A stretch of DNA of 64,000 bases from the human T2T-CHM13v2.0 reference genome, Homo sapiens, in the NCBI RefSeq assembly GCF_009914755.1, contig NC_060947.1; one strand, given 5' to 3'. Made by a program: the position numbers and the translations under genes. This document shows, piece after piece, positions 32,156-60,051 of the stretch. Numbering within the stretch: the first letter of the stretch is position 1; every line of letters begins with the position of its first letter. The notes beneath the pieces are model-generated. The model did no database searches, was not told the origin of the DNA, and saw nothing but the letters and a program-made list of their open reading frames with translations.

Positions 32156-33824
32156 CAAACCTTGCATTGCAGGCATTGACTTGTGCTCTTTCTTGCTCCA
32201 TTGCCTGAGCAGATGCCTGTGAGGGTTCCCTGGCTGGTTCCATCTATCAACTCAACTTGGAGGAGAAGGCTTTTTGGTGCCTCAGACCCATCTCTGTGGA
32301 TGAGCTGGACATGATTGACTTGACCTGCAGAATGACAGAAACGTGAGTGTTTGTGGTTCAGTGCTGGCTGGCTTGATTCCTTGGGGCATGCAATAGGTTC
32401 TGATGGTGACAGTGCTGTGGTGACTGGCATAGCCTGTACATTTGTTGGCTCAGGCTGCTTTTCAGGTGGCTTGGGCTGTGGCTTGGTTGGCTCACCCAGT
32501 TTATGCTGTTCCTGCTCTACTCCTCAGTTGGTTTGGCCTGAGCGTCAGTCACCTCAGCTGGTATCTTAGATACTTCGGTCTGCAGCTCAGCATGCTCTCT
32601 GGTCTGCTCTTCAGCTGACTTAGCCTGTGCCTGGCCCAGCTCAGTCTATACCTCACTGAGTTCACCCTGAATCTTATGGGGGTTCAGCCTGCTTCTTTGC
32701 CTGGACTTCAGTCAGCTCCACCTGTGCCTCTGCCTGATTCTTACATGGCTCAACTTCCTTCCTGAGTGGTTGAGCCTGCTTGTTGGCTGGTATGGCCTGT
32801 TCCTCATATGGCTCAGCTTGTTCCTTGGCTGGTTCAGCCTGTGCCTCAGCCTGCTTTTTATCAGGCTTGGCCTGCTTTTTGGCTTGTTGAGTCTGTACTT
32901 TAGCTGGCTTGACGTGTGTCTCAGCCTGTTCCTTGGATGCCTTGGCCAGTGCCTCAGTTTGCACCTGGGATGGTACAGACCGTACTTACACCCTGGATAA
33001 CTTGGCTTGTGCCTCAGCCTGTTTATTGGCATTTTGGGATTGCTTCTTGGCTAATTTGACCTGTTCTGCTACCTGGTCTTTAGCTGGTTCCTGGGCTGGT
33101 TTGATCTGTTATCCAGCAGATTCTGTTTGCTTCTTTGGCAGTTTCCACCTGTGCCTCAGGCTACCCCTGGGCCTGCTGCTCAGCTGCTTTGGCCTGTGAC
33201 TTAGGCTGCTTATCAGCTAGCTGGGCTTGTTTCTCAGCTACGTTGGCCTGCTCCTTGGCTACTTCAGTCTGTTCCTCAACCTGCACCTCCCATAGTTTGA
33301 CCCATAACTCAGTGGGTTCAGCCTGCACCTTGACTGGCTTGGCCTGTGACTCAGCTGGTTCAACAAGTGCCGGGGCTAGTTTGACCTTTGCCTTGGGTGA
33401 GTTCACCTGTACCTCAGTCAGTTCAGACAGCACCAGAGCCAGCTTGACTTTTGCCTTAGGTGACTTAGCCTGTACCTCAACTGGTTCGGTTAGTGCCAGG
33501 GCCATATTGGCTTTTGCATTGGCCTTTGTCTTAGCTTTGTGGTTAGCTTGGTTAGCTTGAACTGCATCTGGGCCAGCGTGGCTTTTGCCTCAACTGGTTC
33601 AACCTGTGCTTCCATAGGCTCAGCTTGTGCATTGGCCATCTCCTGGGCAAGTTCAGTCTGCATCTCTGCTGGCTGAGCCTGCTTCTTGATCTCCTGGGCT
33701 GGCTTGACCTGTGCCTCTGTCTGGGTGGGCGGGGCCTCCACTTTAGTGTCCTTCTGGGCCTCTGCTTCTTTGTCTTCCTCCTCCCGAAGCTGAAACTCAT
33801 GAAATCCTTTGATGGTCTTCAGCA
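32156..33824 (-). pseudogene. Candidate exon with Gln/Ala/Lys/Glu/Pro heptad repeats (degraded)
   Basis: Acceptor cttcatttgcag| at 33825-33826; ORF pieces 33490-33825, 33161-33505, 32674-32964 with 7-aa periodicity (KQAEAQA EPAKEQA EPYEEQA IPANKQA), separated by frameshifts. Confidence 0.72.
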
Positions 33825-35529
33825 CTGCAAATGAAGATTTGGGCAGAATGAGTCAGTGGGAAGGCGGAAGCAGCATATGGGAAGCAACAGAGGAGCCACA
33901 TTGGCTTGGCTGTTCCCTACCAAACAAGCTGGAGACAGACCCTGCCTAAGCCCCCATAGTCTTTGTTACCATTTGTCTCCATGCAGGCAGCAATAAACCC
34001 TTCCCTTCAGACTCCTGTTCCTTATTCTGTTAACACCCCCAGGCGTTAACACCCCCAAGCTGGAAAGGGGTCGTAGAAACCAAATCTTCCTCCTTGGGGG
34101 ATTCCAACCTAGACCCTCTAAGAAAGCAGTGGAGGGTGTGAAATGATTTCTGATATTGTAAGAGGAATAGCAGAAATTGCACATTTGCTCACAATAAAGC
34201 TGCATCACAAGCTTCACTCAAATATCAATTCTTTTTTGGCTCAGAAGCACAGCTTGTCTCATGGTGATCAAAGGCTCTGACTGGTCTTTATGTGTCTTTG
34301 AATAATGAAAAAGTGGGAAATTGGATTATTAAAAAATGCAACCTATTCAACAGAAAAAAATTTCCCAAATATGAGTCCCAGCGCAGGAAAAATGATGAGA
34401 CGGTCCTGGTGGTGGAGAGGTTGGGGGCCACAGATGTGAGCCAAGCTCTCCTCTCTGTGAGGAAGAAATGATAGCCACCAAGGCCTGGAATGGTTATAGA
34501 ACTTGCTTAAATTTTCACAGAGTTAGGCCCACAGCCCAGCAAAGTCAAAAACAAGCATAATCAGAAGACATTCATAGCATGGTGATTTTCAACTTGTGTA
34601 GACTCAGCTTTTCTTCCAATGATAACACACATGGATGCCTATGAAAGAAATTCAAGTAGAATTATTAAGAATAAAGACTCCAGTCCAAGAAGCTCCCTGA
34701 TTAATTCTTTATGATCCCTCGCTCTACCTAACGTGCCCCTGAGGAACTCCAGGGTGCTGAGAGCACAGTTTAAAAATTATGAAACCCTGCACTTCCTGCT
34801 GATGACACAGATGGGGACTCCTGAAGCCCACTTTAGGGCCAGAGCTAGGTCTAGTACCTAGGTGTACAGCTCCTCAGTTTCGTGGTATCTCCCTGACACC
34901 TCACTGCTTTTTCTCTACAGATCATGCCTCACTGGTCAGTGAGATATAACCAAGGTATGGACAACCTGAACTTCCAGATCCTCAAAGGACTGGCTGAATC
35001 TTGGACACCTAAATAGTGGATCTCAAATTCTTACTTGTGTTTAATTGTACCCCTCCCAACTCCCCAGCAGTGGGAGGGCTTTCAGCCAAGGTAACCTGCT
35101 ATGAAGTTGCCTGGGAGGCAGGAAGTGGATTAAAAAATCTTCCTAGTGTCAACTTCTACTCCTTTCTGTATCTCATCACTGCCTAGAAACTTCTAAAGCT
35201 TTCAAAAACCTCACCCACCCAACCTCCACAGTGTCCTGCCTTTTTGACTCTCTTTCACTTAATTATCCAGCTAAGTTATAAGCTTCCTGAGAGCAGGGAA
35301 AATGTTTGTTTCATTTCTACTTCCCTGATACCTGACACATCATAGACAGGTTTTAATAAACATTTGTTGGCTTGAACTCAACTCTCCCTACTCACATGTA
35401 GTACACAAAATGGAGATTATTAATCTCAGGCTCCAAGTAAGTAAATTTAAATTCAGAGAAGGGGAAGTAACTCCCAAGAGCACACAGAAGGTTAAGGATA
35501 TTGCTAATACTCTGCTTTCCAGCTAACAC

Positions 35530-38283
35530 TGGCCTTCCCATGGGGTACTGGTGAAGGCTGAGGGATTTCTAGGAACCATGGGGAAGGGCCAAATGCAGTG
35601 GGAAGAGGAAATTATAAAAGTAGAGAAGTGAGGGAGCTTCTGGGAGAGAGGGCTAGAACTCACTTTGAGTATAGACATGGGTATGAGGGAAGAGGATGGG
35701 TCCAGTGGGAGAGGCCCTGGTATTGCAGCTTGAACCTGTGTTTGTACTGTCTCTTTGTGCTCTTTTGCCAGTCTTCCCATCACAGGGTAGGCATCTTGCT
35801 AGTAGTTCCCAGGCATTTTCAGTGGATGCCTGTCCCAGAAAAGATAAATGGTAAGAGCACATTGACAGCAAATGCAGAGCCACCTAGAGCCCAGATGGGT
35901 CCTTTTAAATTATTAACTCTTGCGGTAACCCACAGAACAGGGGTGGAGAGTCTTTTGGGCCAGGTTGAGTACTCACTTTGGGGTTGACCAATGCAGGGAG
36001 GGAGGTGCAGAAGGCCTTAGGATTTGAGCCTACGCTGCCAGTGATCCTTGGCTGTTCTTCAGGAATATATACAGTGGAATGTATGGCCTTCACTGGCTGG
36101 GAGAAACAGGAGGAAGGGCTAACAGTGGTTAGTTTGCTTTTTGTTGGGCCCACAGAGGACCAGGATTCTTTGTGTTTGATAGACCCAGTAAATCTAGTGA
36201 CTGGAATTCTAGCCTCATCTCTCTACCCATCCACTGTTTTGATGGCTGTAGGAACAATGTATGTCCCCAATTTATTTAGCCCTCTCTTCTCTCTGGCTTT
36301 TCTTGCCACTGCTGGCTTCTTACCTCGTATCCCATATCCCAATAACTTGGCCTCCCATGCTCTCAGGAAAGAGCTAGATACCCCAATACCTTTTCTGTGG
36401 GCTCTCACACTTGGTTACACCCGGGGCATCCCTTATGGGAGGATTTTAGGTGAAGGAGATTCAAGAAGCTCTATGTCCTTTCTTATACTATTATTTCCCA
36501 CACTATGAGGATATCTTTTGCCTCATCCCTGTCACCTCCTTTACTTACCGAAATCCCCCAACACTCTGGATTCTGCAAACGCGCTTCTGACCTCTCCCTC
36601 TATGGGTAAAACAGAAATTAAGAATCTTTTTCCTACCCTATGCCCCAAGTTCAAATACCCCCGGAGAGATCAACATCCCTTCTGTGAGAAACTTCCAGTT
36701 ATGGAGGAGGCTGTTTTGCTGGTGCTGTCTGGCTCTAAAACCAGAAGCTATAAGGAGGAAGCAGTGAGATCTCAGTAGATTCTGGAATACCTCAAAGGAG
36801 GTCTAGTTCTGGGATGAAGATCCCAACTGAGGTGGCATCCCAACTGAACCATACACCAATGTCATTGCTACTTCTGACTTATTCTCTGTACCACCTCAAT
36901 CCCTCCTTCCATAGCCCTCCTTCCTCCTTCCTATCAGATGATAATTTCCTTGATAAGAGCCTTGAGCTTCACTGAAGGTTTTGGCCACCTGACATCTTAG
37001 GGTTTCACTTGTACTGGACTGGGTTAAGTATCACGTGACTCTCCAAAACAGTGATGGGAGCAGGTAATTACTTAAATAAGAAAAGGCCCACCTGCTGAAG
37101 GCACTTTTGACCCCATTTCTGTGGACATCAGCATGATAAATACTGTTGAGGATGGCTTGATCTGCCACTTTTAGCTCAGAAGCTTATGACCATGTTGTAT
37201 AAGTGGTATCCATAGGCTCCAGAGGTCTATGCTGCCCATAGAACATCACGTCATCTAGGCGTGAGTAGTTCTTCAGGGAGTCTGAGGATTAGTTCTAACC
37301 TTCCCTTTCTTGGGGATCAGATAGCATGTGATGTGAATGTGGTTAGGCCCTTCCTTGTTCCGACTCCTATTTCAAACATCTTGCTTTGATTAATTTTTTA
37401 GCCATTTCCAGGTAGATTTTTCTGCTGCTTTCTGGGGAGTCCTTCTTGGCTTTGAAGGGTGGCTAGTCAGCTACAGTCAGGTGACTTGATTACAGAAGCC
37501 CTTGAAGGGCATTATTTTGCTTCCCCTCTGCTTCTATTTAGTGGATGCTTGGGTGCTCAGCATCCTCTAGAATGCTGTAGGCTCCTCCCTGTCACCATTC
37601 CTGCCCTCTTCAATTTCCTCAGGACATAGTTGTAGCTTCATATGTGGGTAGGTACTGGGGGCAGTAGTGATCCCTGACTCCTCTAAGATGGATGACATGC
37701 TTGGCAGTGTTGAAGGGATCGGAAATGAGGTAGACATGCTCAACTTGAAGAGCAGGGTTAGCACAGTCAGAGGGATGAAGTAAGATGGCTTAGACCACTA
37801 GGAAAAGGCATGCTCCAGAGGGTTAACATAGAAGGCAAAAAGGGGGCTGAAGCAGTGGAGATGCTGGTGGGTAATGCTGCCACCTCTGTGTATGTCCCCA
37901 GAGACCTAACATGGGCCACCTTCTGAAGACAGTGGGGCTCCAAGCCCTTGCCTAGGAACTTGGGGTGCTAGAGTGGTAGCCATAGGAGCAACCATATGGA
38001 AGGTGTCTGGAGTGCAGGTGAGGGTGGCATCAGAGATAGAGGGGTAGACAATGGGATTTTGCCAGGATTAGGGGTACTGGGCTCAGTGGCATAGTGGGTA
38101 ATCATCTGCTACTCAAGCATCAGGTCCTGCTCAGATTGCTAAGGAAGCCTCCAAGCACCACAATCTCTGTCTCTGCTGGGATCCTGCATGTCCATTCCTA
38201 CCATGGCCTCTGCTTTGTGGCCTAGATCTACCTCTCAGAGCTAAGTAAAGCCCATAAGTCTTGACATAGGATATGGCCCATGT
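35530..38283 (-). pseudogene. Candidate large Ser/Pro/Thr-rich exon (degraded)
   Basis: Strong acceptor cttccccagtccctcctccccctag| at 38284-38285; ~2.7 kb with no recognisable repeats; serial minus-strand S/P/T-rich ORF pieces (37567-37764; 36223-36408 and 35905-36153 in the same frame; 35523-35783). 3' boundary uncertain. Confidence 0.6.
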
Positions 38284-38782
38284 CTAGGGGAGGAGGGACT
38301 GGGGAAGAGTTCTGGATACCATGAAGAACAGGGTCATGAACTCTCAGAAGGCAATGGAGCACGTATTGGGGGCTTATGAGACAGCATTTTCTGGGCTCTG
38401 AAATCTATTCTGCCATCAATTTGCTGTGTAACTTCAGGCATAAAGCTGCCTCTCTTAAGGCCCATCTGTAACTTAGGGAGGGAAAATCAGGAATTATAAG
38501 GAACCTCCCAGATTTGAAGTTTTATAGAACAGTAGGTAGATGAGACACAGGGTTTAATTCCTTTCAGGGCTTGCTTTGTTCCAGAGTTATGGATGTCTCT
38601 TTTTCAACAAGCCCAAACCTTTATTCAGCATTCCAAGAAGGTCAAAGACATAAAGAAGATAGAAATGGAACAGGGGATGGGGGCTCAAAGTCCCACATGC
38701 TGAGGACCCTTTTTCTTCTTCACTCAGAGCAGCCTTTTATAGAGAGGTAGAGTGAAAGCAGGGAAGAAGAGAGAACTGTCAT

Positions 38783-39127
<345 letters not shown>

Positions 39128-40149
39128 TGTCATTTTACTAAGCCCCTGCTAGCAGCCAGCACTGCAGTAGGCACTTTACACTCATCCAATTTAAAAGGCT
39201 CACCCACACTTCAGCAAAGTTCTCATTCTCCCCATTTCTCAGACAAGGACACTGAGACTCACTGAGATGATGCCACTTGCCCAAGGTAACGTAGCTAGGA
39301 CATTTCAGAGCTGGGATTAAAACCCAGGCCATGTTCTGAATAGTGTACCAGGAAAGAAAGTAGAGAGTAATGACTATCTGTTGGGGAAAAGTATCAAGAG
39401 TGGGCATCACATTGTAAGAATGAGACCATTAAGAAGGGAGGTGGTAAGCTGAGAAAGAAAATTTACAAATCCTACTATTAGCCATGGGTCAAATAGGCAT
39501 AGGACTTAGTGGCTCAGGACATACATATATACCCCGTACTGTAATATCTGTGCTGCCTTCGTGTGTGCCTGCGTGGGCATACATATGCATGAGGATATGA
39601 GCTCCCTAACTTTCTCTACTCCGAGGACCAACTTCCCCAGCTGTGGGCCATGTGTGAGGCATTGGGGCTGACCACCAGCTGCTGACACTACTCCTGCTAC
39701 TCCTTCAACTGCTGCCTATGGTTCCCAGTGGAAACACATAAAACTTCTTCTATTTATGCCTCTCTGTCTGTAGGATCAGGGCGCTTTGCAAAGCTGTGCC
39801 TCTGTTTACCTGGGTCACAGTGCTTCTCATCACGTCTTTTGGGAGTGAAGAAGCAAAACTAGTAGCGATGGGACTAGAACATGTTTTCTAGGTCAGGCAT
39901 TCCCTCCACATATCCAGTCACAATTCGTTCCCATTTTGGGCAGCAATTGTGATTTTCCCAATGGCCCACTTGTGAGAAGCAAAGACTCAGAGAAGGAAAG
40001 GATCTTTCCCAAGATCCAGTCCCAGTGACACAGATGGGACTGGAACTCAGTTCTGCCCTCCTGGCTTCTAGTCTAATGCTTTTTCCAGCACACTACACAT
40101 TGAAAACAAAGTTCCCTGGCCCCTGAGGGCTTGAGGGCTACCCTCTTAC

Positions 40150-40267
40150 ATGGCATATCTTCAGCACAGCTGGCATTTACAGCCTGTGTTTTCAGTAACA
40201 GCAGAAGGGTATATTCTCCAAAGATTTCAGGAGTATTTTCAATCAGGAACTGAACCAGTTGGGTAAC
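40150..40267 (-). pseudogene. RhoGAP exon 4 (118 nt, open)
   Basis: ctctcag| VTQLVQFLIENTPEIFGEYTLLLLLKTQAVNASCAEDMP |GTAAGA vs VSLLIQFLIENCLRIFGEEITSL. Confidence 0.92.
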
Positions 40268-40976
40268 CTGAGAGCAAGGCCTGTGGTCAGTGGATGGGCC
40301 TGGAGTGAAGCCCCACTATAAGGGGCTGCTCAAGAATTGATGACTCTCTGCTTCCTATCAGATCAAATTCAACTCCCTTAGCCTGGAGAGCCTTGTATAC
40401 TAGGCAAAAGAACAAGTATTTTTCAGCATATGCATGGCATTTCAAACACTGATTATTTTCATTTGACTAATGTAGACAGAAAAGTAAAGTGACTTATTCA
40501 AGATGATACAGTCAGTCACTGATTGGCCCATTTTGCTATACAACATGTATTTTTTCACTTGTCAAATATCCATTAAGAAGTGCTTGCTCTGTGCTTTGTG
40601 CTGGGTGAGGGTTTGGAGATCTAAAGGAATAAAACAAGGTCCCTGGTGTCAGGAAATTCATATTCTGGTAGAAGAGGCAAATAAAATCATTTTCCCTTTT
40701 ATTTGGCTAGTGCTTTAGGGCTTCAAATCCCTTTTATATATGCCATCTATTCTTCCCTCCATAAGGCCCTAATACAAACCTCATTTTAGTGATGAAGAAA
40801 TGAAGGCTCAGTGAGGTCACATGACTTGTCAGAATTTACATCGCTAGTGAGGAAGGCATTTCTGGTATTGACCCTTGCCCTTGTGATCTTTTCATAACAT
40901 GGGGCGAGGAAGCATCTATAGGTAAAAGAGAGGTGGCTTGTAGGGCCCGATGGGGAAGGGGCAGTGAACTCTTTAC

Positions 40977-41166
40977 CTTGCCTATATTCTGGCTCTCATC
41001 TTCTGGTCTTTTGCAGTTGGATAACCATAGCAAGTTGGGTGCAACACACAGGGCTAGGTTGAAAGCTATTATCTGGTTTGCCTCAGAGTTGGCCACAATG
41101 TGGCTCAGGATACCAAAGAGGTACTTTAGCAGCAGGCATTTGCCTTCTGGAAGCTGCACTACTGGT
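40977..41166 (-). pseudogene. RhoGAP exon 3 (190 nt, open)
   Basis: caag| PVVQLPEGKCLLLKYLFGILSHIVANSEANQIIAFNLALCVAPNLLWLSNCKRPEDESQNIGK |GTAAAG vs LLDQLPRANVVLLRYLFGVLHNIEQHSSSNQMTAFNLAVCVAPSILW. Confidence 0.95.
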
Positions 41167-41588
41167 CTTGCCAGTGGGTGACAGATGAAGTCCAGAGGAT
41201 GGGGGACAATTCAGGAAAGAGGAAGGTCAGTTTAATGTGTCTTTGTATATCTCTGTGGGGGTTGGGGGATAATAGCCATGTAAGGTCTGGCTAATTTTGT
41301 CAGAGCACTAGTGCTGATTAGAACTTTGGAGAATCTCCTCACCCTAGTATATAGCAGTGGGGAAATATTGAAGTGTAGAGAAGAGAAGTTACTTGTTTAA
41401 GGGCACACAACTGGTTTAAGGTAGAGCTTGAAATAGAAGTATATATGATGCATGAAGAATCCTGGTTGGAAATGTTTGAAGTATTGAGAAGTGACATTCC
41501 CTCCCCTTTTCTTCCTTTCTTCATCTGCATAACCGTTTTCACTTTTCTCTCCAAGTCTCAGGTATGAGTCTGGAATTAGGAATCTTAC

Positions 41589-41696
41589 CTCTGGAGAGAC
41601 TGGACTCTGCTGGCTGGTATGCCCCTCCATGGCTGTCATCCGTTGTCTGTACATGCCTGAGGACAGAATACTGTCAGGAATGCTGCACAGGAATTT
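41589..41696 (-). pseudogene. RhoGAP exon 2
   Basis: tcag| KFLCSIPDSILSSGMYRQRMTAME/fs/RVQSLQR |GTAAGA vs DFLRNIPGSIFSSDLYDHWVSVMD..KINTVQR; 108 nt where phase implies 110. Confidence 0.92.
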
Positions 41697-42010
41697 CTGA
41701 GTGAAATTCACTCTTATAAAATGCACATGTCCTGGACCTAGACCTACACTCACTAAAGGGATAGCTGATGGATAAATAAATGCCCTTCTGGCCCATGCTG
41801 TTCTCCTGCCCTATGACCATTAAGCATCTCCACCTGCCACCTGAAGATGTGAAGGTTGGTTCAGGTAATAATAATATGGCTCTCTGTTCACATGAACAGT
41901 TCTGAGAAGTTCAGGGCTGTGTGCCTGAGGTAGGGGAGGGAAGTGTCTTGGTTTCTTCCTGGCATTCCCTCGAACCTTGGAGTGGACCACATGTACACAG
42001 GCAGACTTAC

Positions 42011-42172
42011 AGTCAAGACAGATGCAGCCACAAACAATGACTCTCTAACCATGGACACCTGGGCCCCAGAATTCGGTTTCTCCTTTATCTCCTTGCAAGT
42101 CTTGGCACTGGCTGAGTGGCGGAAGATGCCAGCAGTGGTTGGGCCCTCCTTGTATGACAGCATCAGCATGTT
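42011..42172 (-). pseudogene. RhoGAP exon 1 (162 nt, open, arginine finger GIFR)
   Basis: ccaag| NMLMLSYKEGPTTAGIFRHSASAKTCKEIKEKPNSGAQVSMVRESLFVAASVLT |GTAAGT vs DMLFFLNQKGPLTKGIFRQSANVKSCRELKEKLNSGVEVHLDCESIFVIASVLK; 54 codons in both. Confidence 0.95.
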
Positions 42173-42760
42173 CTTGGAAGATCCCCAGATGTTGGGCAGG
42201 TGCCCTCTAATCCAATTTCCAAGGTTTCCTGGGACATGACAATACACTTGCCACAAATTCCCTAGACCCCCATATATCCCCTCTATCCACAGGGTCCTGT
42301 AGACTATTCTTTTACCTGCTGCAGAACTCAACTCCACTCTAACATTCCAGATGGGTTTCTCAGTCTTTGCCTGACCACATGATCTTAATGGTGGCAAGTC
42401 AGTCACTGTGACTGTATAAGAGATTATGTGGTAAGCAAGGAGCATTGACAATCGCCATCAAAACACATTCTGAAAGCAGTTACCTTTCACATCTAAGCAT
42501 TAATTGGAGGCTAGGTCTAGCTGGAGAGCTCTTGCCTGAGAAGATGGGTGTGTTCTACTGGGTTGAGGCCACTGGCTTAGCCTGTAGATTGAGACGTATG
42601 GGGATTATGCATACGCTGTTAGGATGAGGTACCCTCACTAGTAAGGCAGAGCATAAATGCATGAGGGGGCTGAGCCCTGATCTACAATGGCTTTGGAATC
42701 TTAAGCCTAGGCCCAGCCCTTAGGACACAGCTCTTTTGCCTTCAGCCAGAAGTGATTTAT

Positions 42761-42939
42761 CATGATAAGCCTGGGCAGGTGGCTTGTTTGGTACAGTGTA
42801 GACAGATCCAGGCCAAAGAGCTTATGATAATTCTCTTCCTGTGGTGAATATACCATGGAACTTTCTAAGGGTAAGGTAGGGTTTCTCTGCAGGGTCCAGT
42901 ACAGCAGGGACTTTCTTTTTCTTTAGTCTTTTCTTCACT
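42761..42939 (-). pseudogene. Pre-GAP exon
   Basis: E*RKD*RKRKSLLYWTLQR...KLFGLDLSTLYQTSHLPRLIM vs KRRRSIINWAFWR...QLFGISLPNICENDNLPKPVL; two stops; donor reads ATAAAT instead of GTAAAT. Confidence 0.85.
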
Positions 42940-43112: not shown

Positions 43113-43910
43113 TGTGGTATAGTATGAAATATATTTGGTCTTTCTCCCTAGTTACTGTCATAGAGCTCCTAAAACCTCTGGATTTTCTGAATGATAGGAG
43201 CATTTTTTATTATGCATAATAAGCCCATTTGATACATCCTGAGTTTATGCTAATGAGGTTACTTAGGGTGGGGCCTCTAGGTAGCCTCAGGATGGCACCA
43301 GTCACTGGAAAAACCAAGCAATTAGAGGATTAGAGGGTTGAAACTTTCAGCCCCACCTACAGTTCTCTGGGAATGGGGGTGGTTAGAGACCAAGCTCTAT
43401 GAAAACTGTTGAACAGTAAGATTTGATGAGTTTCTGGGTAGCTGAACACGTGTGGAGTTGCTGGAAGGGTGGTGTGTCCAGGTAAGGCATGGAAGATCCA
43501 CCCCCATCCCCACTTGCCTTGTCCATTTCTTCTTCTATATCCTTTATAATAAGCTGGAAATTGTAAGAGTTTTCCTGAATTCTGTGAGCCATCCTAGCAA
43601 ACTGATCAAACCAAAGGAAGAGGTTGTGGGAACCTCAGTTTGTAGCCAGTCTGTCAGAAGTACAGGTCACAACCTGAGACTTGTAATTGATGTCTGAAGT
43701 AGGGGGCAGTCTTGTGGGACTGAGCTCTTAAACTGTGGGATCTGACACTATCTACGTGGAGATAGTAATTGACTTACAGGACACCTAGCTGGTGTCTGCT
43801 GGAGAACTGTTTGGTGTAAGAAACCCCCACCCCCCAACATCTGATCACAGAAATGTGCTGTGAGTGTGTTGAGCAGAGTAGAGAGAAAAAAATTGTTTTT
43901 CCCTTTCAGA
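43113..43910 (+). mobile_element. MER21-type solo LTR (intronic)
   Basis: tgtggtat..aaatatatttggtcttt..agagctcctaaaacc start; gaggg on both flanks. Family and strand assigned from memory. Confidence 0.7.
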
Positions 43911-43994
43911 GAGGGGCTGGATCAAAGGGCCCGTATACTGTTTCTGTGTCTCTAGGATCCACACAGAGCCTGGCATCAAGGACTCAGCCCTTAC

Positions 43995-44171
43995 CTCTCT
44001 CCAATACACTGGGTAGTTTGCTCTTGTGCTTCAAAATAAATTTAAATTGCTTGTCCTCAGGCACCTGACTCAGAGATGTGGGGTCAAGGTAGCCCTGAGT
44101 GGTCCTGGAGGTGATTGGCTGGGGCACATGGCACAGGTTTGTTTGGGCAATGTTGTATGAGCTCTCATGGC
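43995..44171 (-). pseudogene. RA-domain exon 3 (177 nt, open)
   Basis: ttttcctttctag| HESSYNIAQTNL...SQVPEDKQFKFILKHKSKLPSVLER |GTAAGG vs HEYPYGIKMSHL...EQLPREMQCQFILKP; phase 1-1. Confidence 0.85.
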
Positions 44172-45169
44172 CTAGAAAGGAAAAAAAAAAACCACTTACA
44201 CCTTTGCCCCAGCAGAAGGGTACCCATTCCTTGGCTACCCACTGTCACCTGATGTCTTCCTTACCCCATTCAAACATTAGTGACAGGTTCTCTTTAGGGA
44301 AGAAGTGGCTGAGAGATTTTCCTTCATTTTCCAGCCCTGATCAATGAGTAGCATGTACTAGGAGAGCTGTATGGAGAAGGATTCTGAGGATGTGTACAGA
44401 CTCAGAGATAAACAGTATTATGACTAATTTCAGATGTTTGTCATGGGTATAAGACATGGGAACTCATGCTATATGTCTGTCATTTTGCATCTAAGGGCCT
44501 AAAAATGATCTTTACAAAACATAGATGGTAAGGCTATGCTGGCACTGAATTCCTTGTGTATCTGGAGGCATACGAATTAACCTTTCTTGGCCCAAGGTTC
44601 CCTTTCAGAACCTTGGAGATATCATCAGTCAGGTAATGTCAATCTCTAAGAAATACCTCAGTGGACTCTAGCTATGGAGATGCAAAACAGAGAGCACTGA
44701 GACAAATATTTTCATGGGGTCCCAGAACAAAGGCTAAAGTAGCTGGGATTAGTTAGCTTAGTTTAGAGAACTTTAAGGAAAGAGAGTTTGTTTTGCTGTT
44801 CTCTTGCCCTGCCTCAATTTTCCTTCCATGGACACTGAAAAATATAGCTACCCAGTTGTCCAGCATGTAGCTGATTCAAGGGATTTGTTGAATTTTATTA
44901 GTAAATTTTATAATTTTGCCTTCTGGATGAGGAGAGAAAAGTCTAATTTCTCTTCATGTCACTGTTTTTTCAGCAATTTAAATGATTATTCCCCAAACTG
45001 TGTTCTGATTATTTTTGTTGCATGAGGTGGCAATAGCAGTAGCCCTCAGGATTCTCAGAGTTAAACAAATTGGGAAATACTGCATTCTGGACTGGTCCCT
45101 TTGTTACACATATTAATACATTCATAGATTAGAGAAATCCTACAGTAAAGAAACACATTTCACTTTCTT

Positions 45170-51274
<6,105 letters not shown>

Positions 51275-51712: not shown

Positions 51713-51778
51713 TAATGAGTGGGTAAGACAGGCCTCTTTTGATGAATTCACCCGTAGCAAAAAATCACAGGATTGGCC
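51713..51778 (-). pseudogene. RA-domain exon 2
   Basis: ctttccttag| GQSCDFLLRVNSSKEA/fs/SYPLI |GTAAGG vs GSERDYQLWVNSGKEEAPYPLI; 66 nt, 1-nt deletion. Confidence 0.87.
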
Positions 51779-53720: not shown

Positions 53721-54426
53721 ACCAGGGCCTCCTACCAGGGTCTATAAACTGCTTTGAGGTCATAAGATAGAGGAAATTGCTGTCTCAGAGACAGGGTTTG
53801 GACTTAATCTAGTTGCTTCTTACTGTCTTTGGATGCCACCTCCACATATTACAGGCCTTTCCCAAGGTGCAACTCCAATCATGTCACTCTCCTGCTCAAA
53901 AAGCAGTGGCTTTTTATTGTCTGGCAGATCAAGTTCAATCTTCAACCTCATATTCAGATGCCTATCTTGGTTGAGTCATAAAACTCTCTGATCTTGTTCC
54001 TCACAACTCTGGAGTATGTAGTAACATTTCAAATCTACTTGCTTTTCCTCACTTTTACTTCTCATACTTCTTCAACTCTATCTCACTACATAAGTTTCTC
54101 TCTCCAGTCAGAATGTCCTTCCCTCCCTTTCTCCTGAAGAAATTCTCCCTGTCCTTTGAGGTTCTGCTCAAATGTCACCTCCTCAAGTAAGCTCTCCCTG
54201 ACCTGCCCTCCCTCTTACTGCTCCTGAGTCAAAGCTCGTTCTGTGTGGACTTGATTTATTTACCTCCCGCCCTTTCCAGAAAGGACCTAAGGAGCACACT
54301 TTAGGGTCAGAACTGACCCATGATTTCTCTATCCATCATCCGCCCCAGCCTCTGGCATAGTGCCTAGTGCATCAGAGGCACTTGCTGAACATTGGGCCTA
54401 ATTTACTGAAACCAGTATCTACTTAC

Positions 54427-54504
54427 AGAAAGTCCCAGCTGATGCACTGCCCTCCCAATGATCTTCTCAGAAGTCCCAGTATTGGTCACAGTTATTAGAA
54501 TAGT
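54427..54504 (-). pseudogene. RA-domain exon 1 (78 nt, open)
   Basis: tttacccag| TILITVTNTGTSEKIIGRAVHQLGLS |GTAAGT vs SKTITVMNSDTANEVINMSLPMLGIT; same 26 codons. Confidence 0.85.
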
Positions 54505-55056
54505 CTGGGTAAAGATAACACACTGGGCATGGTAGGATTAAGACATAAATTAGTGAAAGGGAGCAAATGGAGTGCCAGGTCAGCCAGCATTGCTGCCATG
54601 ATCTCCTCGGGGCTGGATGGTAGCATGAATTGAGATGCCACAGACCAGACGCTAGCCTTCCTCATGTACAGAGGCCAATGGGAAGGACCAAGGAAGGACA
54701 TAAGTCCAGGAGAATTTCTTAGGTGGAGAAATCACAAGCTGATAAATTACTTACAACAGCAAATGTTCTCCAGGGTAAGGTTTTCTTCTGATGAGACCGG
54801 GTTAAGGCAAGAAGCAGAAGTTACCATCTCAGAAAACATACCAATGTCACCTTTATGAAGGTGAGAATTGGGGCCCTATGGGGTCTCATGGGGCTGACAG
54901 TGTACATGTAGGACCATTCAGGGCACTTGGGAAGGATGTGGAGTTGTTAGCCAGGCATGCATTCCCTGAAGGCATCCCCAAGGCCTCTAATCCCCTGCCC
55001 ACTAACCTGCTCTTTCAGGGGCACTCACAGGTAGAGAGTCAGTCAGTGGGACTCAC

Positions 55057-55139
55057 TGAGGTAAGTTCATTGACCTCCATCAGCAGAATCCTGAGTCATG
55101 TTCTTTGGACAATGATTCTGCTTCTGCTCTTGGATATTA
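55057..55139 (-). pseudogene. PH-RA linker exon
   Basis: acag| NIQEQKQNHCPKNMT/fs/LRILLMEVNELTS |GTGAGT vs YINLEKEKDYPKSIPLKIFAKDIGNCAY; 83 nt, 2-nt deletion. Confidence 0.78.
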
Positions 55140-56062
55140 CTGTCTGGAGAAGTAGACAAAGGATGGGTGGGGAGAGGTAGGTAGGAATGCAGAAAGCAGG
55201 GACTTAGCCAGCAATGCTGACCAAGGGCCTCATAGGGCTGGTCAAGGAGGAGGGCTTTGTGGGGGGCAAAAAATATTTGTTGCCTCCCTAATCCTACCCA
55301 CCTCACACCTGAACATCAGTTCTTGGGTTATGCCTTGACCTCTGTGGACTCCTCTTGGAAAACACAAATCCTTGGGGCAAATATTTTGAAGGGGGATATA
55401 TTGCTCATATTTCAGAGTGAAGGTTTCAAAATCTCTATCACCAAACAGAAGGGATGAATATTGGGTTTGAGAGCTAAAGGAAACTAAGATGTGGGATCAA
55501 GGCTGTTCTCTGGCTAAAATGTCTCTTTTCATCTGATCCCATAAATCACCACAAATTTCTCACAAATACTGAAAAATTGTTGTTTCCAATGTTTAACTCA
55601 GTGAAGACCAGGCCTAAAGATTAACAGTGTTTTAGTCTATTGTGTTTATATAAAGGAGGGAGGTGGCTAGTTTCTCTCTCCAGACACTGTTAGAAAAGAA
55701 ATGGACTTTGGCTACAGTATGAGGATTTGAGTCAGACTTCAGAATAAACCTATTGAGAGCGAGGGCTGCTAAACTCTTTAGGGGGTTGTGGAATTATCTT
55801 TTCTATTAATAAAAACCCTAAAGAGCCAGCATTTATTTATTTTCTCTTACATAGTATATCAAGGGCTAACTGGAGCAGAGTGAGGGATTGCAAAGACCTT
55901 TCTGGCTTTGTAGTGAAGGGTCCTGTGAGAGTGCCTAGATCAGAAAAGTAATGCACCACTCGGAGTATGGCACCTGAAGAAAACTGGCCTGGCCGATCCC
56001 ACTTTGAGGTGAACTTGAGGTAGAGACTGAGAAGGGGAGAGGGAAAGGAGGAAACAACTTAC

Positions 56063-56104
56063 CAGCACAGAGCAGGAAACCAGCAATTCTTGTTTTTTCA
56101 GGAA
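56063..56104 (-). pseudogene. PH-domain exon 3 (42 nt)
   Basis: S*KNKNCWFPALC |GTAAGT vs SPEQKDKWLSLLQ; same length and phase 2-2; acceptor reads AT instead of AG; internal TGA. Confidence 0.7.
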
Positions 56105-56239
56105 ATAATGACAATATACACACACAAAACTAGAATGGTTATCTAAGAAAGAGCACGGAGAGGAGTGATGAGTAACTTTCCTCTTTTGAGATAATTTCTT
56201 CTTAAGGAGCAAGAAAACAAAAGAGAAACCTTGGGCATG

Positions 56240-56860
56240 AGTCTGTATGTAGAACTAATTATGTGAATGTGCTTGTCCATGGAAATGTGTATGTGTGTGT
56301 AATAAATAGAAAAAACTCAGGTGTGAGTGTGTAGATGACCATAGGTATGTGTAGGTGTAGGGAATGTGATCACAGGTGTATGTAAGTACATGAGCACGGG
56401 TATGTCTAGGAGTGTGGCCGCGCCTATAAATACAGGTGTATATGTGTAAGTGTGTGTGTGGAAATGTACACATGCATGAAATGTGAGTGTGTGTAAAATG
56501 TGAGTTAGTATGTGTTGGATATGGTGTGTATATAAGCAGAAGAATATGTATATGTGATTGCATGTACATGTGGGTGAATGTGCGTGGGCATTGATGGAGA
56601 GGCATGTGTGTGGGTCAGCGTAGCAGCATGGTATATGTAGGAATATGAGTTATTGTGGGAATAATGTATGAGAAAAATATAAATGGGCATGTATGGGTAT
56701 GTAGAAACAGAGATGTGTGCATCTACAAGTGTGTATGTGTAAGCATAAGTATGGATATATGTACAATGCAAGTGTGCGTGAGAAGGCACTGAGGTGGTTG
56801 GGCTCACATGGGTTTGTTAAGCAGCAGCGTATAGAGTAGGTCTGTGTATTCACATGTGAG
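56240..56860. repeat. Degenerate (TG/TA)n low-complexity tract
   Basis: Alternating purine-pyrimidine sequence (gtgtatatgtgtaagtgtgtgtg). Confidence 0.8.
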
Positions 56861-57262
56861 ACTGCATTTCTGGGTCTCAGTGTATGGCTGTTTCAGTTTT
56901 TAATTTCCTAAAAGTATTTATTAAACATCCACTAAGTAAACAGCCTTGGTGGCCACTCAATAAATTAGGTGTGGGTACATGAAGAAAGTCTGTGTAGCCT
57001 TTCAAAACCAGCTATCAGTGCAATTTTTTTCATTTTTTTTTTCCTTTTATCTCTGTGTCTTTTCTGGTGCCTGTAATTCCTAAAATCCAGACATGGCAGG
57101 ACAGAATGTTCAATAAGTGTTCATACCTTGCAGACATTGAGGGATGACGGTTTATATTTCACAATTTGGTAAAAAATAATTTCACAAGAATTTTAAAAGA
57201 AGAGATAAGGTAAGAAGGAATGGATAATACAGAAGAAAAGGTAACTCTCATGACTGCCTTAC

Positions 57263-57408
57263 CAGAAGACGACCACAATGTTGGTTGTATGCCAACTGAT
57301 CATGAAACAGGTGTCTGCACAGATCTCCTTCACTGTCTCTTCTCCTAGGCAGGAGGCAAACCACACCTCACTCAGACGCACCGCTTCTTAAGTTTCAGGT
57401 TGGTGGAC
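57263..57408 (-). pseudogene. PH-domain exon 2
   Basis: cctag| STNLKLKK/fs/VRLSEVWFASCLGEETVKEICADTCFMISWHTTNIVVVF |GTAAGG vs YNNNFKIKNKIKLTDMWTASCVDEVGEGNTNAMKSFVLGWPTVNFVATF; 146 nt, 1-nt deletion. Confidence 0.88.
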
Positions 57409-57796
57409 CTAGGATTTATGCCCATGGCAGGTCAGTCTGAGTCGGCAGAAAGGAGTCTGCTCCCTACTTCCCATGGACCCTGGGATGGGCCTTGGGGTCT
57501 TGGGCTAAAAGGTGGCTTTCTGCTTGTTAACTTCCCTCTCCCATCCTGATGAGTGCCTGGAATTGTGCCTCTTCTTCTGTCTTAGGTGTTAGGTTTCCCT
57601 CTGTAACTTCCCTGGCTAAAATGGAGTGGTATCTGTATTCTAGACACAAAAGAGATGGAAAATTTGACCTACTGGACTATCGAAGGGCTCCCATAAGCAG
57701 CTTTGCCTTACTGCAAAGGCCTCCTATAGAAGGAACCATTCCATCCTCCCCCATCCCTGCCCAATTCCACCATCCTGGGGACCAGAAGTATCCTAC

Positions 57797-58014
57797 TTAG
57801 GCTTGGCAATAATGGTACGATTCTCAACAATGACAAGAGTATCATTATTCTCAACAATGATACTCTTATCATTGTTGAGAATAAGGCGTCTTCACTGGAT
57901 CTGTGTACCATTGTTCAGTTCAGTCTCATCATCCGTGACGAAGGTGGACTGGGCCCATGGAGAGTTCCCATCAGAGCCGCATTGTCTGGCTAACTGGCCT
58001 CCCAGAGTTGGTCC
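57797..58014 (-). pseudogene. PH-domain exon 1
   Basis: ctctcccag| ...TFVTDDETELNNGTQIQ*RRLILNND[insertion]IIAKPK |GTAGGA vs ARHGAP20 TLLIDGRAELKRGLQRQERHLFLFNDLFVVAKIK; internal TGA. Confidence 0.75.
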
Positions 58015-58667
58015 CTGGGAGAGGTGAGATGGGAAATGAAAAATCCATATGTCATGAACTGGTGAGATAAACACTGCAGACAACCTCACCTAGAGACCAC
58101 GTTGTTGATTGTTTCAGATGCATTTCCATCCTCTTTCTAAACCTCAATTCTGATCATGCCTCTCTCCAGTTCAAAATCCCTCAATAGCTCCTCTTTGTTT
58201 ACAGGATAAAGCCCAAGCTCCTTTGCTGGGCCCTATTCTGCTTTTCCTGATTTATCTCCTGCCCTTTGCCCCCTTGTATCTTGTATTCCAGCTCCTCACT
58301 TTTCTTTGAACATGATGTGCTTGGTTCATGCCTCTTGGCCATTGCTCATAGTAGTTCATCAGCCTGGTATGCCTATCTGCTCCCACCTAGTAAATGCCTA
58401 ATCATTTGCCACCCAGTTCAATTGTCATGTTAAAGCCCTCCCTGGTACTCCTACATACAAATAGTTTATTCTTCCTCTCCCAACACGGGGTCTTTTTCTT
58501 GCTGGGCTTTCTCTTCTTTAGACTCTTGGGGCCCTGATTTTTAAAAATTCATTAAACCTCATAAGCTAGATACTATTATCACCCCCATAACTTGCCCCAA
58601 GTCTCACATTGTGTTTAGTGATGGAACCAGGATGCAAACCCCGGCAATCTGTCTCTAGCACTTGTAA

Positions 58668-58830
58668 CTTTCTTTTTTCTTTAGAGAAAGGGTCTTGTTT
58701 TGTCACTCGGGCTGGAGTGCAGTGATGTGATCATAGCTCACTGCAACCTGAAACTCCTGGGGTTGAATGATCCTCCTGCCTCAGCATCCTGAGCAGTGGG
58801 GATTACAGGTGTGAGCAACTGCACTCAGCT
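58668..58830 (-). mobile_element. Old Alu monomer (FLAM/AluJ-like)
   Basis: T-tail then gggtcttg...gctggagtgcagtg...gattacaggtgtgagc. Confidence 0.8.
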
Positions 58831-59391
58831 TGCATCCCTGATTTTAAGGTTCCCAAAGCATGGAAAGGGTTGGAACCACTGGTGCCCAGCCCAGGGCTCA
58901 GTAAGTTGAGATTATCAGAAAAAGAACCCATGTAGGCATGGATCTGAAATTAGGTAGGTAAGGGTACTGTAATAGATGGAGAATAAAAAGGAGAAAGAGC
59001 TAGAGCTCTACTCATGGGCATTGAAAGAGTCCTGAAATATGGAGTGGGGAGAGGCATGGTTTCCACATTCCTATTCATGAACAATGGCTGGCAGCTGGTG
59101 CTGATGGAAAGGGGTCCTAAAAACAATTATCTTTCTTCCCAAGTTGGCCTTTCCTTCTACCTAGGTTAGATGGTCCTAGTATGAGTCAAAACAAAGCAAA
59201 AATCTCCAGTATCTTCCTCATGTGGGAAGCTGCCAGGGTGCTTAGGGGCAAGCAAAGAAGGAGGATTCTTTCTGCCCTAACTTCTCTGAGGATTTTGGTA
59301 AATTTCACTGCATATTATCTGTGAAAATGCTTAATCCCCTGCTTCTTCAAACCCTCCCAAGCTGCCTTTCCTATGATGTTTTTCTACTCAC

Positions 59392-59426
59392 CTGGGCTTT
59401 CATTTCTTGGGCTCCTTTGGACAGAC
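59392..59426 (-). pseudogene. Candidate 35-nt exon (LSKGAQEMKAQ)
   Basis: ttccctgcttacag| ... CAG|GTGAGT, phase 1 to 0, fitting the next exon. The upstream intron is only 52 nt, which is suspiciously short. Confidence 0.5.
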
Positions 59427-59478
59427 CTGTAAGCAGGGAAGTCAGGGTGCAGGAGGTAGGGACAAGCATGGTACTCAC

Positions 59479-60051
59479 CTGGAGATACAGTATGACTGGT
59501 TGAGGACCAAAATAGTGGACTGCTGTTTGCCACTCTCACTCCCACTGGAACTCAGACACCCACTGGAACTCAGACTCCCAAATGTGCTCAGGCTCAAGCT
59601 CCTGAAGGTGTTCAAGCCTTCATTGACACTCAGCTATGATTGACACTGATGTCTTCATTGAAGATCATAGTATTGGCTGCACTTGCAGTTTTGCTGCCAG
59701 TCTCAATTCTGCAGGTGCCCACCCCTTCACTGACGCTCATGTCTGCATTGGTGCTTGCTTCTATGCTGGCATTGTTGATGTTGCTGCTGCTTGTGTTCTC
59801 AATGGCTACTATGATTTCACTAGCAATGGAGTTTCCACTAGTATTTATGATCTTAGAGCTGCTTGGGCCACTGACACTCCTGGTATCACTGCAGTTGCTG
59901 GTGCTACTGTCACTCTTAGTATGATAACTTCTTATGGCACTACTGCCACTTTGAAAGTGTTTTATGGTCAGCTTAATTTTCTGTGGGAGAATGAGGCCTT
60001 TAGGCAGGAACCTGGTAGCTCTCCTGCCACCCCTTTGATGCCTTCCATGTC
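59479..60051 (-). pseudogene. Candidate first coding exon: Ser/Thr/Asn-rich 6-aa repeats
   Basis: GACATGG in strong Kozak context at 60048 after tag|; ORF 59630-60145 (..NTSSSN INNASI EASTNA DMSVSE..); 18-nt tandem unit at ~59540-59578; donor CAG|GTGAGT at 59479. Frameshifted. Confidence 0.55.

What the first reader, a model, noticed from the sequence alone, without database searches (positions are those of the whole stretch)
32156..60051. Hidden 28-kb fossil of an ARHGAP20/TAGAP-family PH-RA-RhoGAP gene: candidate unitary pseudogene
Seen: twelve minus-strand exons in the right order (58014-57797, 57408-57263, 56104-56063, 55139-55057, 54504-54427, 51778-51713, 44171-43995, 42939-42761, 42172-42011, 41696-41589, 41166-40977, 40267-40150), ten with both AG and GT intact. 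Phases chain correctly once 1-2 nt deletions are allowed. Known: the translations follow the PH, RA and RhoGAP domains of ARHGAP20 (recalled), with matching codon counts in several exons (14, 26, 54). Inference: retained introns exclude retrotransposition. Extensive but conservative divergence from ARHGAP20, with core motifs kept (GIFR, YLFG, AFNLA.CVAP, QFLIEN, YPLI), points to an old paralog that worked for a long time before being lost. Most exons are invisible to the ORF track, so annotation may be absent or partial.
Basis: partly seen in the sequence, partly recalled or inferred. Interest (0 to 1): 0.92.

Follow-up and report, generated by a model that had tools for sequence, protein, structure and literature searches.

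The report
Dead human copy of ARHGAP20B
Next to the moesin gene on the human X chromosome lies the decayed but still intron-bearing remnant of ARHGAP20B, an ancient vertebrate Rho-GTPase regulator that birds, reptiles, fish, rabbits and gophers still carry intact, so it is a genuine but fairly ordinary case of an old gene lost in our lineage.

Summary
All 12 listed minus-strand exons are real, and two terminal exons complete a 14-exon, 27.9-kb gene body (window 59977-32085). It is colinear with a 1258-aa pocket-gopher protein and a 1050-aa rabbit protein, at 62-82% identity in 11 of 12 internal exons.

The human copy carries a lost start codon, 11 frameshifts, 10 premature stops, two dead splice sites and a 27-nt duplication in the PH domain.

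It is not a recent ARHGAP20 duplicate.
- Trees place it with gopher and rabbit inside the vertebrate ARHGAP20-like/arhgap20b clade (100/99 support).
- The AU test rejects grouping with ARHGAP20 (p 1.7e-5).
- The locus lies 96 kb from MSN, as chicken ARHGAP20B does. This parallels RDX-ARHGAP20 and EZR-TAGAP.

Human-specific amino-acid changes (85, against 25 in gopher and 20 in rabbit) hit deeply invariant sites at random. Changes in the two Glires avoid those sites. So this is a unitary pseudogene that has drifted for about 0.06-0.08 substitutions per site, a rough estimate that probably reaches back to early primates.

RefSeq has nothing here, and seven literature searches found no description. 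It is a new member of a known kind and of moderate interest.

The parts
59479..59977 (-). Exon 1 (499 nt). This is the Ser/Thr/Asn-rich N-terminus. ATT stands at 59977-59975 where gopher (MKPTV) and a cormorant orthologue isoform, P0091 (MKPIV), start with Met. A frameshift lies near 59635. The donor GT is at 59478-59477.
   Evidence: 77/164 identical to gopher
57797..58014 (-). Exon 2, first half of the PH domain. Lesions: TAG at 57992, a frameshift near 57950, TGA at 57894, and a 27-nt tandem duplication (57820-57846 and 57847-57873, 81% alike) that adds 9 codons.
57263..57408 (-). Exon 3, second half of the PH domain. It has a frameshift near 57383.
   Evidence: Pfam RHG20_PH E 8.5e-8; 38/48 identical to gopher
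56063..56104 (-). Exon 4 (42 nt). The acceptor is AT instead of AG, and there is a TGA at 56100.
   Evidence: same length as the ARHGAP20 exon
55057..55139 (-). Exon 5, with a frameshift near 55093.
54427..54504 (-). Exon 6 (26 codons, open). It falls in the RA-domain region.
   Evidence: 78 nt as in ARHGAP20
51713..51778 (-). Exon 7, with a frameshift near 51733. It contains the YPLI motif.
43995..44171 (-). Exon 8 (open).
   Evidence: 42/59 identical to gopher
42761..42939 (-). Exon 9. It has a TGA at 42937 and a TAA at 42925, and the donor is AT instead of GT.
   Evidence: 179 nt as in ARHGAP20
42011..42172 (-). Exon 10 (54 codons, open). This is the start of RhoGAP, and the GIFR arginine finger is retained.
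41589..41696 (-). Exon 11, RhoGAP, with a frameshift near 41606.
40977..41166 (-). Exon 12, RhoGAP core (YLFG, AFNLALCVAP). It is open.
   Evidence: Pfam RhoGAP E 2.9e-9; 3msx_B E 2.9e-13
40150..40267 (-). Exon 13, the end of RhoGAP (QFLIEN). It is open.
32085..33824 (-). Exon 14 (1740 nt), an Ala/Glu/Gln/Lys-rich tail. It has 5 frameshifts (about 33546, 33136, 32676, 32519, 32169) and 5 premature stops (33163, 33111, 32988, 32648, 32135). The terminator TAG at 32087-32085 is at the same place as in gopher and rabbit. A 63-nt repeat of 2.9 copies lies at 33338-33517.
   Evidence: 314/535 identical to rabbit

Best explanation
Window 32085-59977 (T2T chrX:64,264,085-64,291,977, minus strand) is the human orthologue of vertebrate ARHGAP20B. 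That gene is the third ancient member of the ARHGAP20/TAGAP family of PH-RA-RhoGAP proteins. Here it survives only as an unprocessed, unitary pseudogene.

The intact gene is inferred, by homology with ARHGAP20, to encode a RhoGAP that switches off a Rho GTPase through an arginine finger, under control of its PH and RA domains. This function was not tested.

The family's three members each sit beside one ERM-family gene: TAGAP by EZR, ARHGAP20 by RDX, and this locus by MSN. That is the pattern expected from the early vertebrate genome duplications.

In the mammalian stem the gene evolved fast, and its C-terminal half lost detectable similarity to the non-mammalian tail. It then stayed under purifying selection in at least rabbit and pocket gopher. 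In the human lineage it was inactivated and has since drifted neutrally. My rough estimate is about 0.06-0.08 substitutions per site, which suggests tens of millions of years and probably early primate evolution or before. It cannot now make the protein.
For: Shown:
- A colinear 14-exon match to gopher P0001 and rabbit P0002.
- Lesions: ATG to ATT at the start, 11 frameshifts, 10 premature stops, and 2 lost splice sites. The rabbit-guided alignment of exons 3-14 gave the same 9 frameshifts and 8 stops.
- Exon lengths against human ARHGAP20: 5 of 12 identical, 5 within 1-4 nt, one 12 nt shorter and one 53 nt longer.
- Trees: the human fossil, gopher and rabbit group at 100/100 inside the ARHGAP20-like/arhgap20b clade at 100/99. 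ARHGAP20 (99/99) and TAGAP (100/100) are separate clades.
- AU test against grouping with ARHGAP20: lnL difference 46.4, p 1.7e-5.
- Synteny: the ERM_C exons of three genes lie 272 kb (chr6), 348-352 kb (chr11) and about 96 kb (chrX) from the three GAP loci.
- Chicken chr4 gene order is MSN-FDX1B-ARHGAP20B-HSF3-EDA2R-AR (PMC12681815, passages read).
- Relaxed constraint: over 455 comparable columns there are 85 human-only, 25 gopher-only and 20 rabbit-only changes. In columns invariant across 14 non-mammalian orthologues there are 27 of 85 human changes against 4 of 45 Glires changes (Fisher p 0.0044). The human changes are spread like the columns themselves (p 0.70). The Glires changes avoid invariant columns (p 9e-5).
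- Gopher domain architecture is RHG20_PH, RA and RhoGAP.

Inferred: the age of the loss, the link to whole-genome duplication, and the biochemical function.
Against: - Only two named mammalian orthologues were found among 5.8 billion proteins. The rabbit model lacks the first PH exon.
- The gopher model comes from a non-curated annotation.
- Synteny in gopher and rabbit was not checked.
- No nucleotide data from other mammals were available, so dN/dS and shared lesions are untested.
- The tree joins human with gopher rather than gopher with rabbit (98/93). This conflicts with the species tree and probably reflects the long human branch.
- The AU test's group was named after the tree had been seen.
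- The RA domain is not detectable by Pfam in any single human exon.
- The names EZR, RDX and TAGAP for the chr6 and chr11 loci are recalled, not given by a tool. ARHGAP20 on chr11 is confirmed, because its translation is identical to chain 3msx_B as shown.
- The age estimate rests on recalled mutation-spectrum and lineage-rate figures.
Confidence: 0.9

Rival explanations
1. It is a duplicated pseudogene: a segmental copy of ARHGAP20 from chr11 that landed on the X and never functioned.
For: ARHGAP20 is the best solved-structure match. The exon structures are nearly the same. Humans do carry other dead ARHGAP20-derived copies, on chr4 and chr7.
Against: - The GAP exon is 77% identical to the gopher protein but only 48% to human ARHGAP20.
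- The trees place it in a separate clade that includes skates, coelacanth, amphibians and sauropsids.
- The AU test rejects grouping with ARHGAP20 (p 1.7e-5).
- Chicken ARHGAP20B has the same MSN-side position.
- Glires orthologues are open and constrained.
Confidence: 0.02
2. The gene was already dead or dying in the ancestor of placental mammals. On this view the gopher and rabbit 'proteins' are annotation artefacts read through decaying exons.
For: - The mammalian stem branch is very long (0.70-0.74 against about 0.16 on the sauropsid side).
- The tail is not alignable to non-mammalian tails (best E 3.3).
- No named orthologue was found in any other mammal.
- The rabbit model has an odd N-terminus.
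Against: - Gopher keeps 1258 codons open across 14 exons. Rabbit keeps 1050.
- Gopher and rabbit differ from each other at few sites. None of 25 gopher-only and 4 of 20 rabbit-only changes fall in deeply invariant columns (p 9e-5).
- Their tip branches are 0.02-0.05 against 0.27 for human.
- Several unnamed exon fragments at 83-97% identity to gopher are also open.
Confidence: 0.05
3. The locus is still used in humans, either as a non-coding RNA or through a short residual ORF, rather than being inert.
For: Ten of twelve internal exons keep both splice sites. Six of the 14 exons are still open.
Against: - RefSeq gives no transcript model in 32-60 kb (hub annotation).
- There is no GC-rich promoter-like rise upstream of exon 1 (GC 0.38-0.46).
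- Human changes hit conserved sites at random.
- The first stop comes after about 175 codons, in a frame that lacks its start codon.
Confidence: 0.05

Closest known systems
[quoted passage not shown] Examples: chicken ARHGAP20B, turtle P0006, coelacanth P0070, skate P0066.
   Same: It is the same orthologous group by tree (100/99). Its position beside MSN matches chicken. The PH-RA-RhoGAP core is 50-55% identical between the gopher orthologue and these proteins.
   Different: The human copy is broken by about 24 lesions. The mammalian branch is 4-6 times longer. The mammalian C-terminal half, rich in Ala, Glu, Gln and Lys, shows no similarity to the conserved non-mammalian tail.
Human ARHGAP20 (11q22-23; structure 3MSX chain B)
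   Same: The domain order and intron positions are the same. The best PDB hit has 48-57% identity in the GAP exons. It too lies beside an ERM-family gene.
   Different: It is a separate ancient clade. ARHGAP20 is intact, and this locus is not.
TAGAP (6q25, name recalled)
   Same: It belongs to the RhoGAP family, and its neighbour carries an ERM_C exon. It forms the third vertebrate clade.
   Different: It aligns only over the GAP region, filling 45-47% of the kept columns, and is 41% identical in the GAP exon.
Unitary pseudogenes in general. GULO and the human HSF3 remnant are recalled examples, not tested here.
   Same: An orthologous locus is kept in place with its introns. It is disabled in one lineage and functional in others.
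   Different: Nothing differs in kind. This is simply a further member, absent from the RefSeq annotation supplied.

Membership tests
ARHGAP20/TAGAP family (PH-RA-RhoGAP) | RhoGAP domain (PF00620) with an arginine finger | tested here: met
   Pfam gives E 2.9e-9 (37.4 bits, above the 24.5 cut-off) for ORF 40836-41210. It gives 1.3e-3 (19 bits, below the cut-off) for ORF 41888-42457. GIFR is present in exon 10.
ARHGAP20/TAGAP family (PH-RA-RhoGAP) | ARHGAP20-type PH domain (PF22286) | tested here: met
   The exon 3 ORF 57259-57387 gives E 8.5e-8 at 32.7 bits, above the 27.7 cut-off. The exon 2 ORFs gave no hit.
ARHGAP20/TAGAP family (PH-RA-RhoGAP) | RA domain (PF00788) between PH and GAP | tested here: inconclusive
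   No Pfam hit for human ORFs covering exons 6 and 8. The gopher orthologue has RA at 316-382 (E 3e-5). Human exons 6-8 align to that stretch at 71-82% identity.
ARHGAP20/TAGAP family (PH-RA-RhoGAP) | Shared intron positions with ARHGAP20 | tested here: met
   All 12 internal exons correspond one to one. Lengths (ARHGAP20/fossil): 42/42, 78/78, 179/179, 162/162 and 190/190 are identical. Five differ by 1-4 nt. The other two are 189/177 and 165/218.
ARHGAP20B orthologous group | Falls within the ARHGAP20-like/arhgap20b clade and not within ARHGAP20 or TAGAP | tested here: met
   Quick tree of 55 rows: SH-aLRT 100. Careful tree of 30 rows: 100/99. AU p 1.7e-5 against grouping with ARHGAP20.
ARHGAP20B orthologous group | Conserved position next to MSN | tested here: met
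   Human: the MSN 3' end is 95.7 kb from the fossil's stop codon (hub annotation). Chicken: the order is MSN-FDX1B-ARHGAP20B-HSF3-EDA2R-AR. Not checked in gopher or rabbit.
Unitary (unprocessed) pseudogene | Disabling lesions in a locus that keeps its introns | tested here: met
   Start codon lost, 11 frameshifts, 10 premature stops and 2 splice sites lost, with 13 introns retained.
Unitary (unprocessed) pseudogene | Functional orthologue in another species | tested here: met
   Open 1258-aa (gopher) and 1050-aa (rabbit) models exist. Glires changes avoid invariant columns (p 9e-5). Expression and function in those species were not tested.
Unitary (unprocessed) pseudogene | No intact copy elsewhere in the same genome | tested here: met
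   The own-genome search with P0001 finds only this locus at high identity. Other hits are ARHGAP20, the chr6 locus, stop-bearing chr4 and chr7 copies, and distant RhoGAPs. That search used a stricter first look, so its counts are a floor.
Unitary (unprocessed) pseudogene | Fixed in the species rather than polymorphic | not testable with these tools
   Only one human genome was available. About 24 independent lesions make a segregating intact allele very unlikely (inference).

The most novel reading that the evidence does not exclude
ARHGAP20B was rebuilt in stem mammals, with 4-6-fold faster change in the domains and a new Ala/Glu/Gln/Lys-rich, partly repetitive C-terminal half. It then became dispensable in most placental lineages. 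On this reading it survives under strong constraint only in some Glires, and was lost in the primate lineage tens of millions of years ago and, independently, in many other orders. That would make it a case of repeated parallel loss of an X-linked RhoGAP after a change of function.
Probability: 0.3. Interest if true: 0.6.

Novelty: new member of a known kind. Interest (0 to 1): 0.45.

Why it matters
- It adds a well-preserved, unannotated unitary pseudogene to the human X. RefSeq shows nothing there.
- It shows that the human ARHGAP20/TAGAP family once had a third member.
- It completes a three-way paralogy block: EZR-TAGAP, RDX-ARHGAP20 and MSN-ARHGAP20B. That block is useful for reconstructing the vertebrate genome duplications.
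- It flags that 'ARHGAP20-like' labels in databases cover two unrelated things: the ancient ARHGAP20B and a younger chr4-type duplicate.
- Work on ARHGAP20B in chicken, fish or rabbit has no direct human counterpart.

Tried and rejected
- Pfam on single human exons failed for the exon 2 ORFs, the ORFs covering exons 6, 8 and 9, the exon 1 ORF and the tail ORFs.
- A whole-genome Pfam Fer2 search, meant to locate FDX1 and a possible FDX1B remnant, found nothing at E<=0.01. I think this is because the domain is split over small exons. I dropped the lead.
- TRF did not detect the exon 2 duplication. The repeat finder did.
- At first I read bird hits of 42-44% identity as a second paralog. One such sequence, P0091, proved to be the same gene with a damaged GAP region. 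The true ARHGAP20 clade was then identified by matching unnamed representatives to the human chr11 exon.
- My first exon 1 boundary (59478) was one base off and created a spurious frameshift. I corrected it to 59479.
- Literature searches that returned nothing relevant: ARHGAP20+TAGAP+pseudogene (1 unrelated review, listing only); unitary pseudogene+ARHGAP20 (0); ARHGAP20P (0); ARHGAP20+ohnolog (0); ARHGAP20+RDX+TAGAP+EZR+MSN (0); fdx1b+arhgap20 (only the chicken paper).
- 'GTPase-activating protein 20-like' returned 3 papers. I read passages from two. The rat LOC could not be assigned. The cattle LOC is on chr6, so it is the chr4-type family.
- No structure prediction or complex prediction was run. 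They would not change the verdict.
Full report
**The observation**

The window is human T2T chrX:64,232,001-64,296,000 (hub note). Ten of the 12 intervals have both an AG acceptor and a GT donor. The exceptions are the acceptor of 56104-56063 (AT) and the donor of 42939-42761 (AT).

- Pfam finds RhoGAP in two exon ORFs (E 2.9e-9 and 1.3e-3).
- Pfam finds the ARHGAP20-type PH domain in exon 3 (E 8.5e-8, above the curated cut-off).
- No single human exon gives an RA hit.
- The best solved structure for both GAP exons is ARHGAP20, chain 3msx_B.

**A much closer relative than ARHGAP20**

A protein search with one GAP exon returned a 1258-aa uncharacterized protein of the pocket gopher *Thomomys bottae*, P0001, at 77% identity. 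[quoted passage not shown] It also returned more than 100 non-mammalian 'ARHGAP20(-like)/arhgap20b' proteins at 38-55% identity.

tblastn of P0001 on the window gives colinear matches from 59977 down to 32088. Twelve of 14 exons score E<1e-3, E7 is marginal (0.095), and the 14-codon E4 was not found.

The gene therefore has 14 exons.

Gopher has the RHG20_PH, RA and RhoGAP domains in that order.

**The damage**

A frameshift-aware protein-to-DNA alignment of the spliced exons gives the same picture with either guide protein (gopher; rabbit for exons 3-14).

- ATT stands where gopher and a cormorant orthologue isoform (P0091) have the start Met.
- There are 11 frameshifts, near 59635, 57950, 57383, 55093, 51733, 41606, 33546, 33136, 32676, 32519 and 32169.
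- There are 10 premature stops, at 57992, 57894, 56100, 42937, 42925, 33163, 33111, 32988, 32648 and 32135.
- Two splice sites are lost.
- A 27-nt tandem duplication lies inside the PH domain.
- The terminator is at the same place as in gopher and rabbit.

Identity to gopher is 62-82% in 11 of the 12 internal exons, 50% in the 14-codon exon 4, and 47% in the first and last exons.

**Not a retrocopy and not a young copy of ARHGAP20**

I located the human ARHGAP20 exons on chr11. Their translation is identical to chain 3msx_B where the two overlap. I then compared exon lengths.

- All 12 internal exons correspond one to one.
- Five lengths are identical (42, 78, 179, 162 and 190 nt).
- Five differ by 1-4 nt.
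- One is 12 nt shorter.
- Exon 2 is 53 nt longer.

A 55-row tree and a careful 30-row tree show three vertebrate clades.

| Clade | Support | Members |
|---|---|---|
| TAGAP-like | 100/100 | includes a protein 85% identical to the human chr6 exon |
| ARHGAP20 proper | 99/99 | elasmobranchs, teleosts, a tortoise, mammals |
| ARHGAP20-like/arhgap20b | 100/99 | skates, coelacanth, gar, sturgeon, amphibians, sauropsids, and human fossil + gopher + rabbit (100/100) |

Holding the three mammalian sequences together with ARHGAP20 proper costs 46.4 lnL units (p-AU 1.7e-5). That group was named after the tree had been seen.

**Synteny**

A Pfam ERM_C search of the human genome finds one exon at C6:160.01 Mb, one at C11:110.24 Mb and one at C23:64.166 Mb. 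The hub annotation identifies the last as MSN. The family's GAP exons lie 272 kb, 352 kb and about 96 kb from these. The names EZR, RDX and TAGAP for the chr6 and chr11 loci are from memory.

In a chicken GWAS paper (PMC12681815, passages read) the SNP table gives this gene order on chromosome 4:

- MSN at 105-128 kb
- FDX1B at 153 kb
- ARHGAP20B at 157-198 kb
- HSF3 at 241 kb
- then EDA2R and AR

This is the human Xq12 neighbourhood. The fossil is therefore the human orthologue of ARHGAP20B. The three ERM-plus-GAP pairs look like products of the early vertebrate genome duplications (inference).

**Was it functional, and for how long has it been dead?**

No DNA from other mammals was available, so I used proteins. 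Over 455 comparable columns of the PH-RA-GAP region:

| Change found in | Columns |
|---|---|
| human only | 85 |
| gopher only | 25 |
| rabbit only | 20 |
| all three differ | 14 |

In the columns that are invariant across 14 non-mammalian orthologues, human has 27 changes, gopher 0 and rabbit 4.

- Human changes are distributed like the columns themselves (Fisher p 0.70).
- Glires changes avoid invariant columns (p 9e-5).
- Human differs from Glires in this respect (p 0.0044).

Tip branches are 0.27 for human, 0.05 for gopher and 0.02 for rabbit. So the gene is constrained in the two Glires and is drifting in the human lineage.

Three rough estimates of the neutral phase follow. All use recalled mutation-spectrum figures.

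- 21 of 128 invariant, Glires-retained columns are changed in human, which gives about 0.08 substitutions per site.
- 10 nonsense codons in 3.8 kb give about 0.06.
- 11 frameshifts give about 0.03-0.1, depending on the indel-to-substitution ratio assumed.

Set against recalled human-lineage distances, this points to a loss before the catarrhine-platyrrhine split and possibly near the base of primates. This is inference only.

**Mammalian remodelling**

The stem leading to the three mammalian sequences is 0.70-0.74. The path from the amniote node to turtle is about 0.16.

The C-terminal half of the gopher and rabbit proteins is 46-53% Ala, Glu, Gln and Lys. It has no detectable similarity to the tails of non-mammalian orthologues (best E 3.3). 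The turtle tail, by contrast, matches alligator, ostrich, axolotl, coelacanth and skate at E from 0 to 6e-67, and even matches mammalian ARHGAP20 at 4e-12.

**Distribution in mammals**

Two searches of 5.8 billion proteins were run, one at near lengths and one at shorter lengths. Gopher and rabbit are the only named mammalian orthologues found. A few unnamed single-exon fragments at 83-97% identity to gopher also exist, and their intron flanks align to the human introns.

Badger, snow leopard and horse '20-like' proteins (38% identity) belong to a different, ARHGAP20-derived family.

**Prior knowledge**

RefSeq lists nothing between 32 and 60 kb (hub note). Seven full-text searches found no description of a human ARHGAP20B remnant. 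GENCODE could not be consulted.

**Verdict**

In kind this is an ordinary unitary pseudogene. It is notable for its age, its preservation, its clean paralogy context and its absence from the annotation supplied.

Noticed in passing
own genome G000:C4:123266467-123266682 (+) and C4:123311757-123311918 (-), with further exons in L008, L013 and L014: There are two inverted, multi-exon, stop-bearing copies of an ARHGAP20-derived gene on chr4. They are closest to short 'ARHGAP20-like' proteins of carnivores and horse (574-610 aa), and that group nests with mammalian ARHGAP20 in the tree. A cattle '20-like' LOC is on BTA6. This looks like a second, unrelated dead family member in humans.
   Followed up: partly
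own genome G000:C7:~16979554-16980236 (-), locus L006: An intronless stretch is 62-69% identical to ARHGAP20 residues 72-299 and carries 2 stops. It is probably a processed pseudogene fragment of ARHGAP20.
   Followed up: partly
window 33338-33517: A 63-nt unit is repeated 2.9 times (70% matches) inside the last exon. It corresponds to 21-residue 'AKVKLALxLxEPxEVQxKSPK'-like repeats that are also seen in rabbit and gopher.
   Followed up: partly
window 57820-57873: A 27-nt tandem duplication (81% alike) adds 9 codons inside the PH domain of exon 2. It is absent from gopher.
   Followed up: yes
window 43777-44490 (-): Database protein P0306 (238 aa, 138 contigs, no source name) is this window's exon 8 plus flanking intron, read with W at five in-frame stop positions (whether these are TGA was not checked). 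It appears to be a gene-caller artefact and not a real protein.
   Followed up: yes
between MSN (window -63656) and 32085, and beyond 60000: Chicken has FDX1B between MSN and ARHGAP20B, and HSF3 just beyond. From memory, human FDX1 lies between RDX and ARHGAP20. Remnants of FDX1B and HSF3 may therefore lie near this window. A genome-wide Pfam Fer2 search found nothing.
   Followed up: partly
window 38757-39131 and 45345-50054: The repeat-masked blocks in the hub's list fall in introns 13 and 7 of the fossil. ORFs in the 45-50 kb block resemble LINE-1 ORF2 by eye only. No exon is interrupted by them.
   Followed up: no
proteins P0001 and P0002 against P0006 and others: The mammalian ARHGAP20B tail has no detectable similarity to the conserved non-mammalian tail (best E 3.3). 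The non-mammalian tail is conserved from skate to birds.
   Followed up: partly
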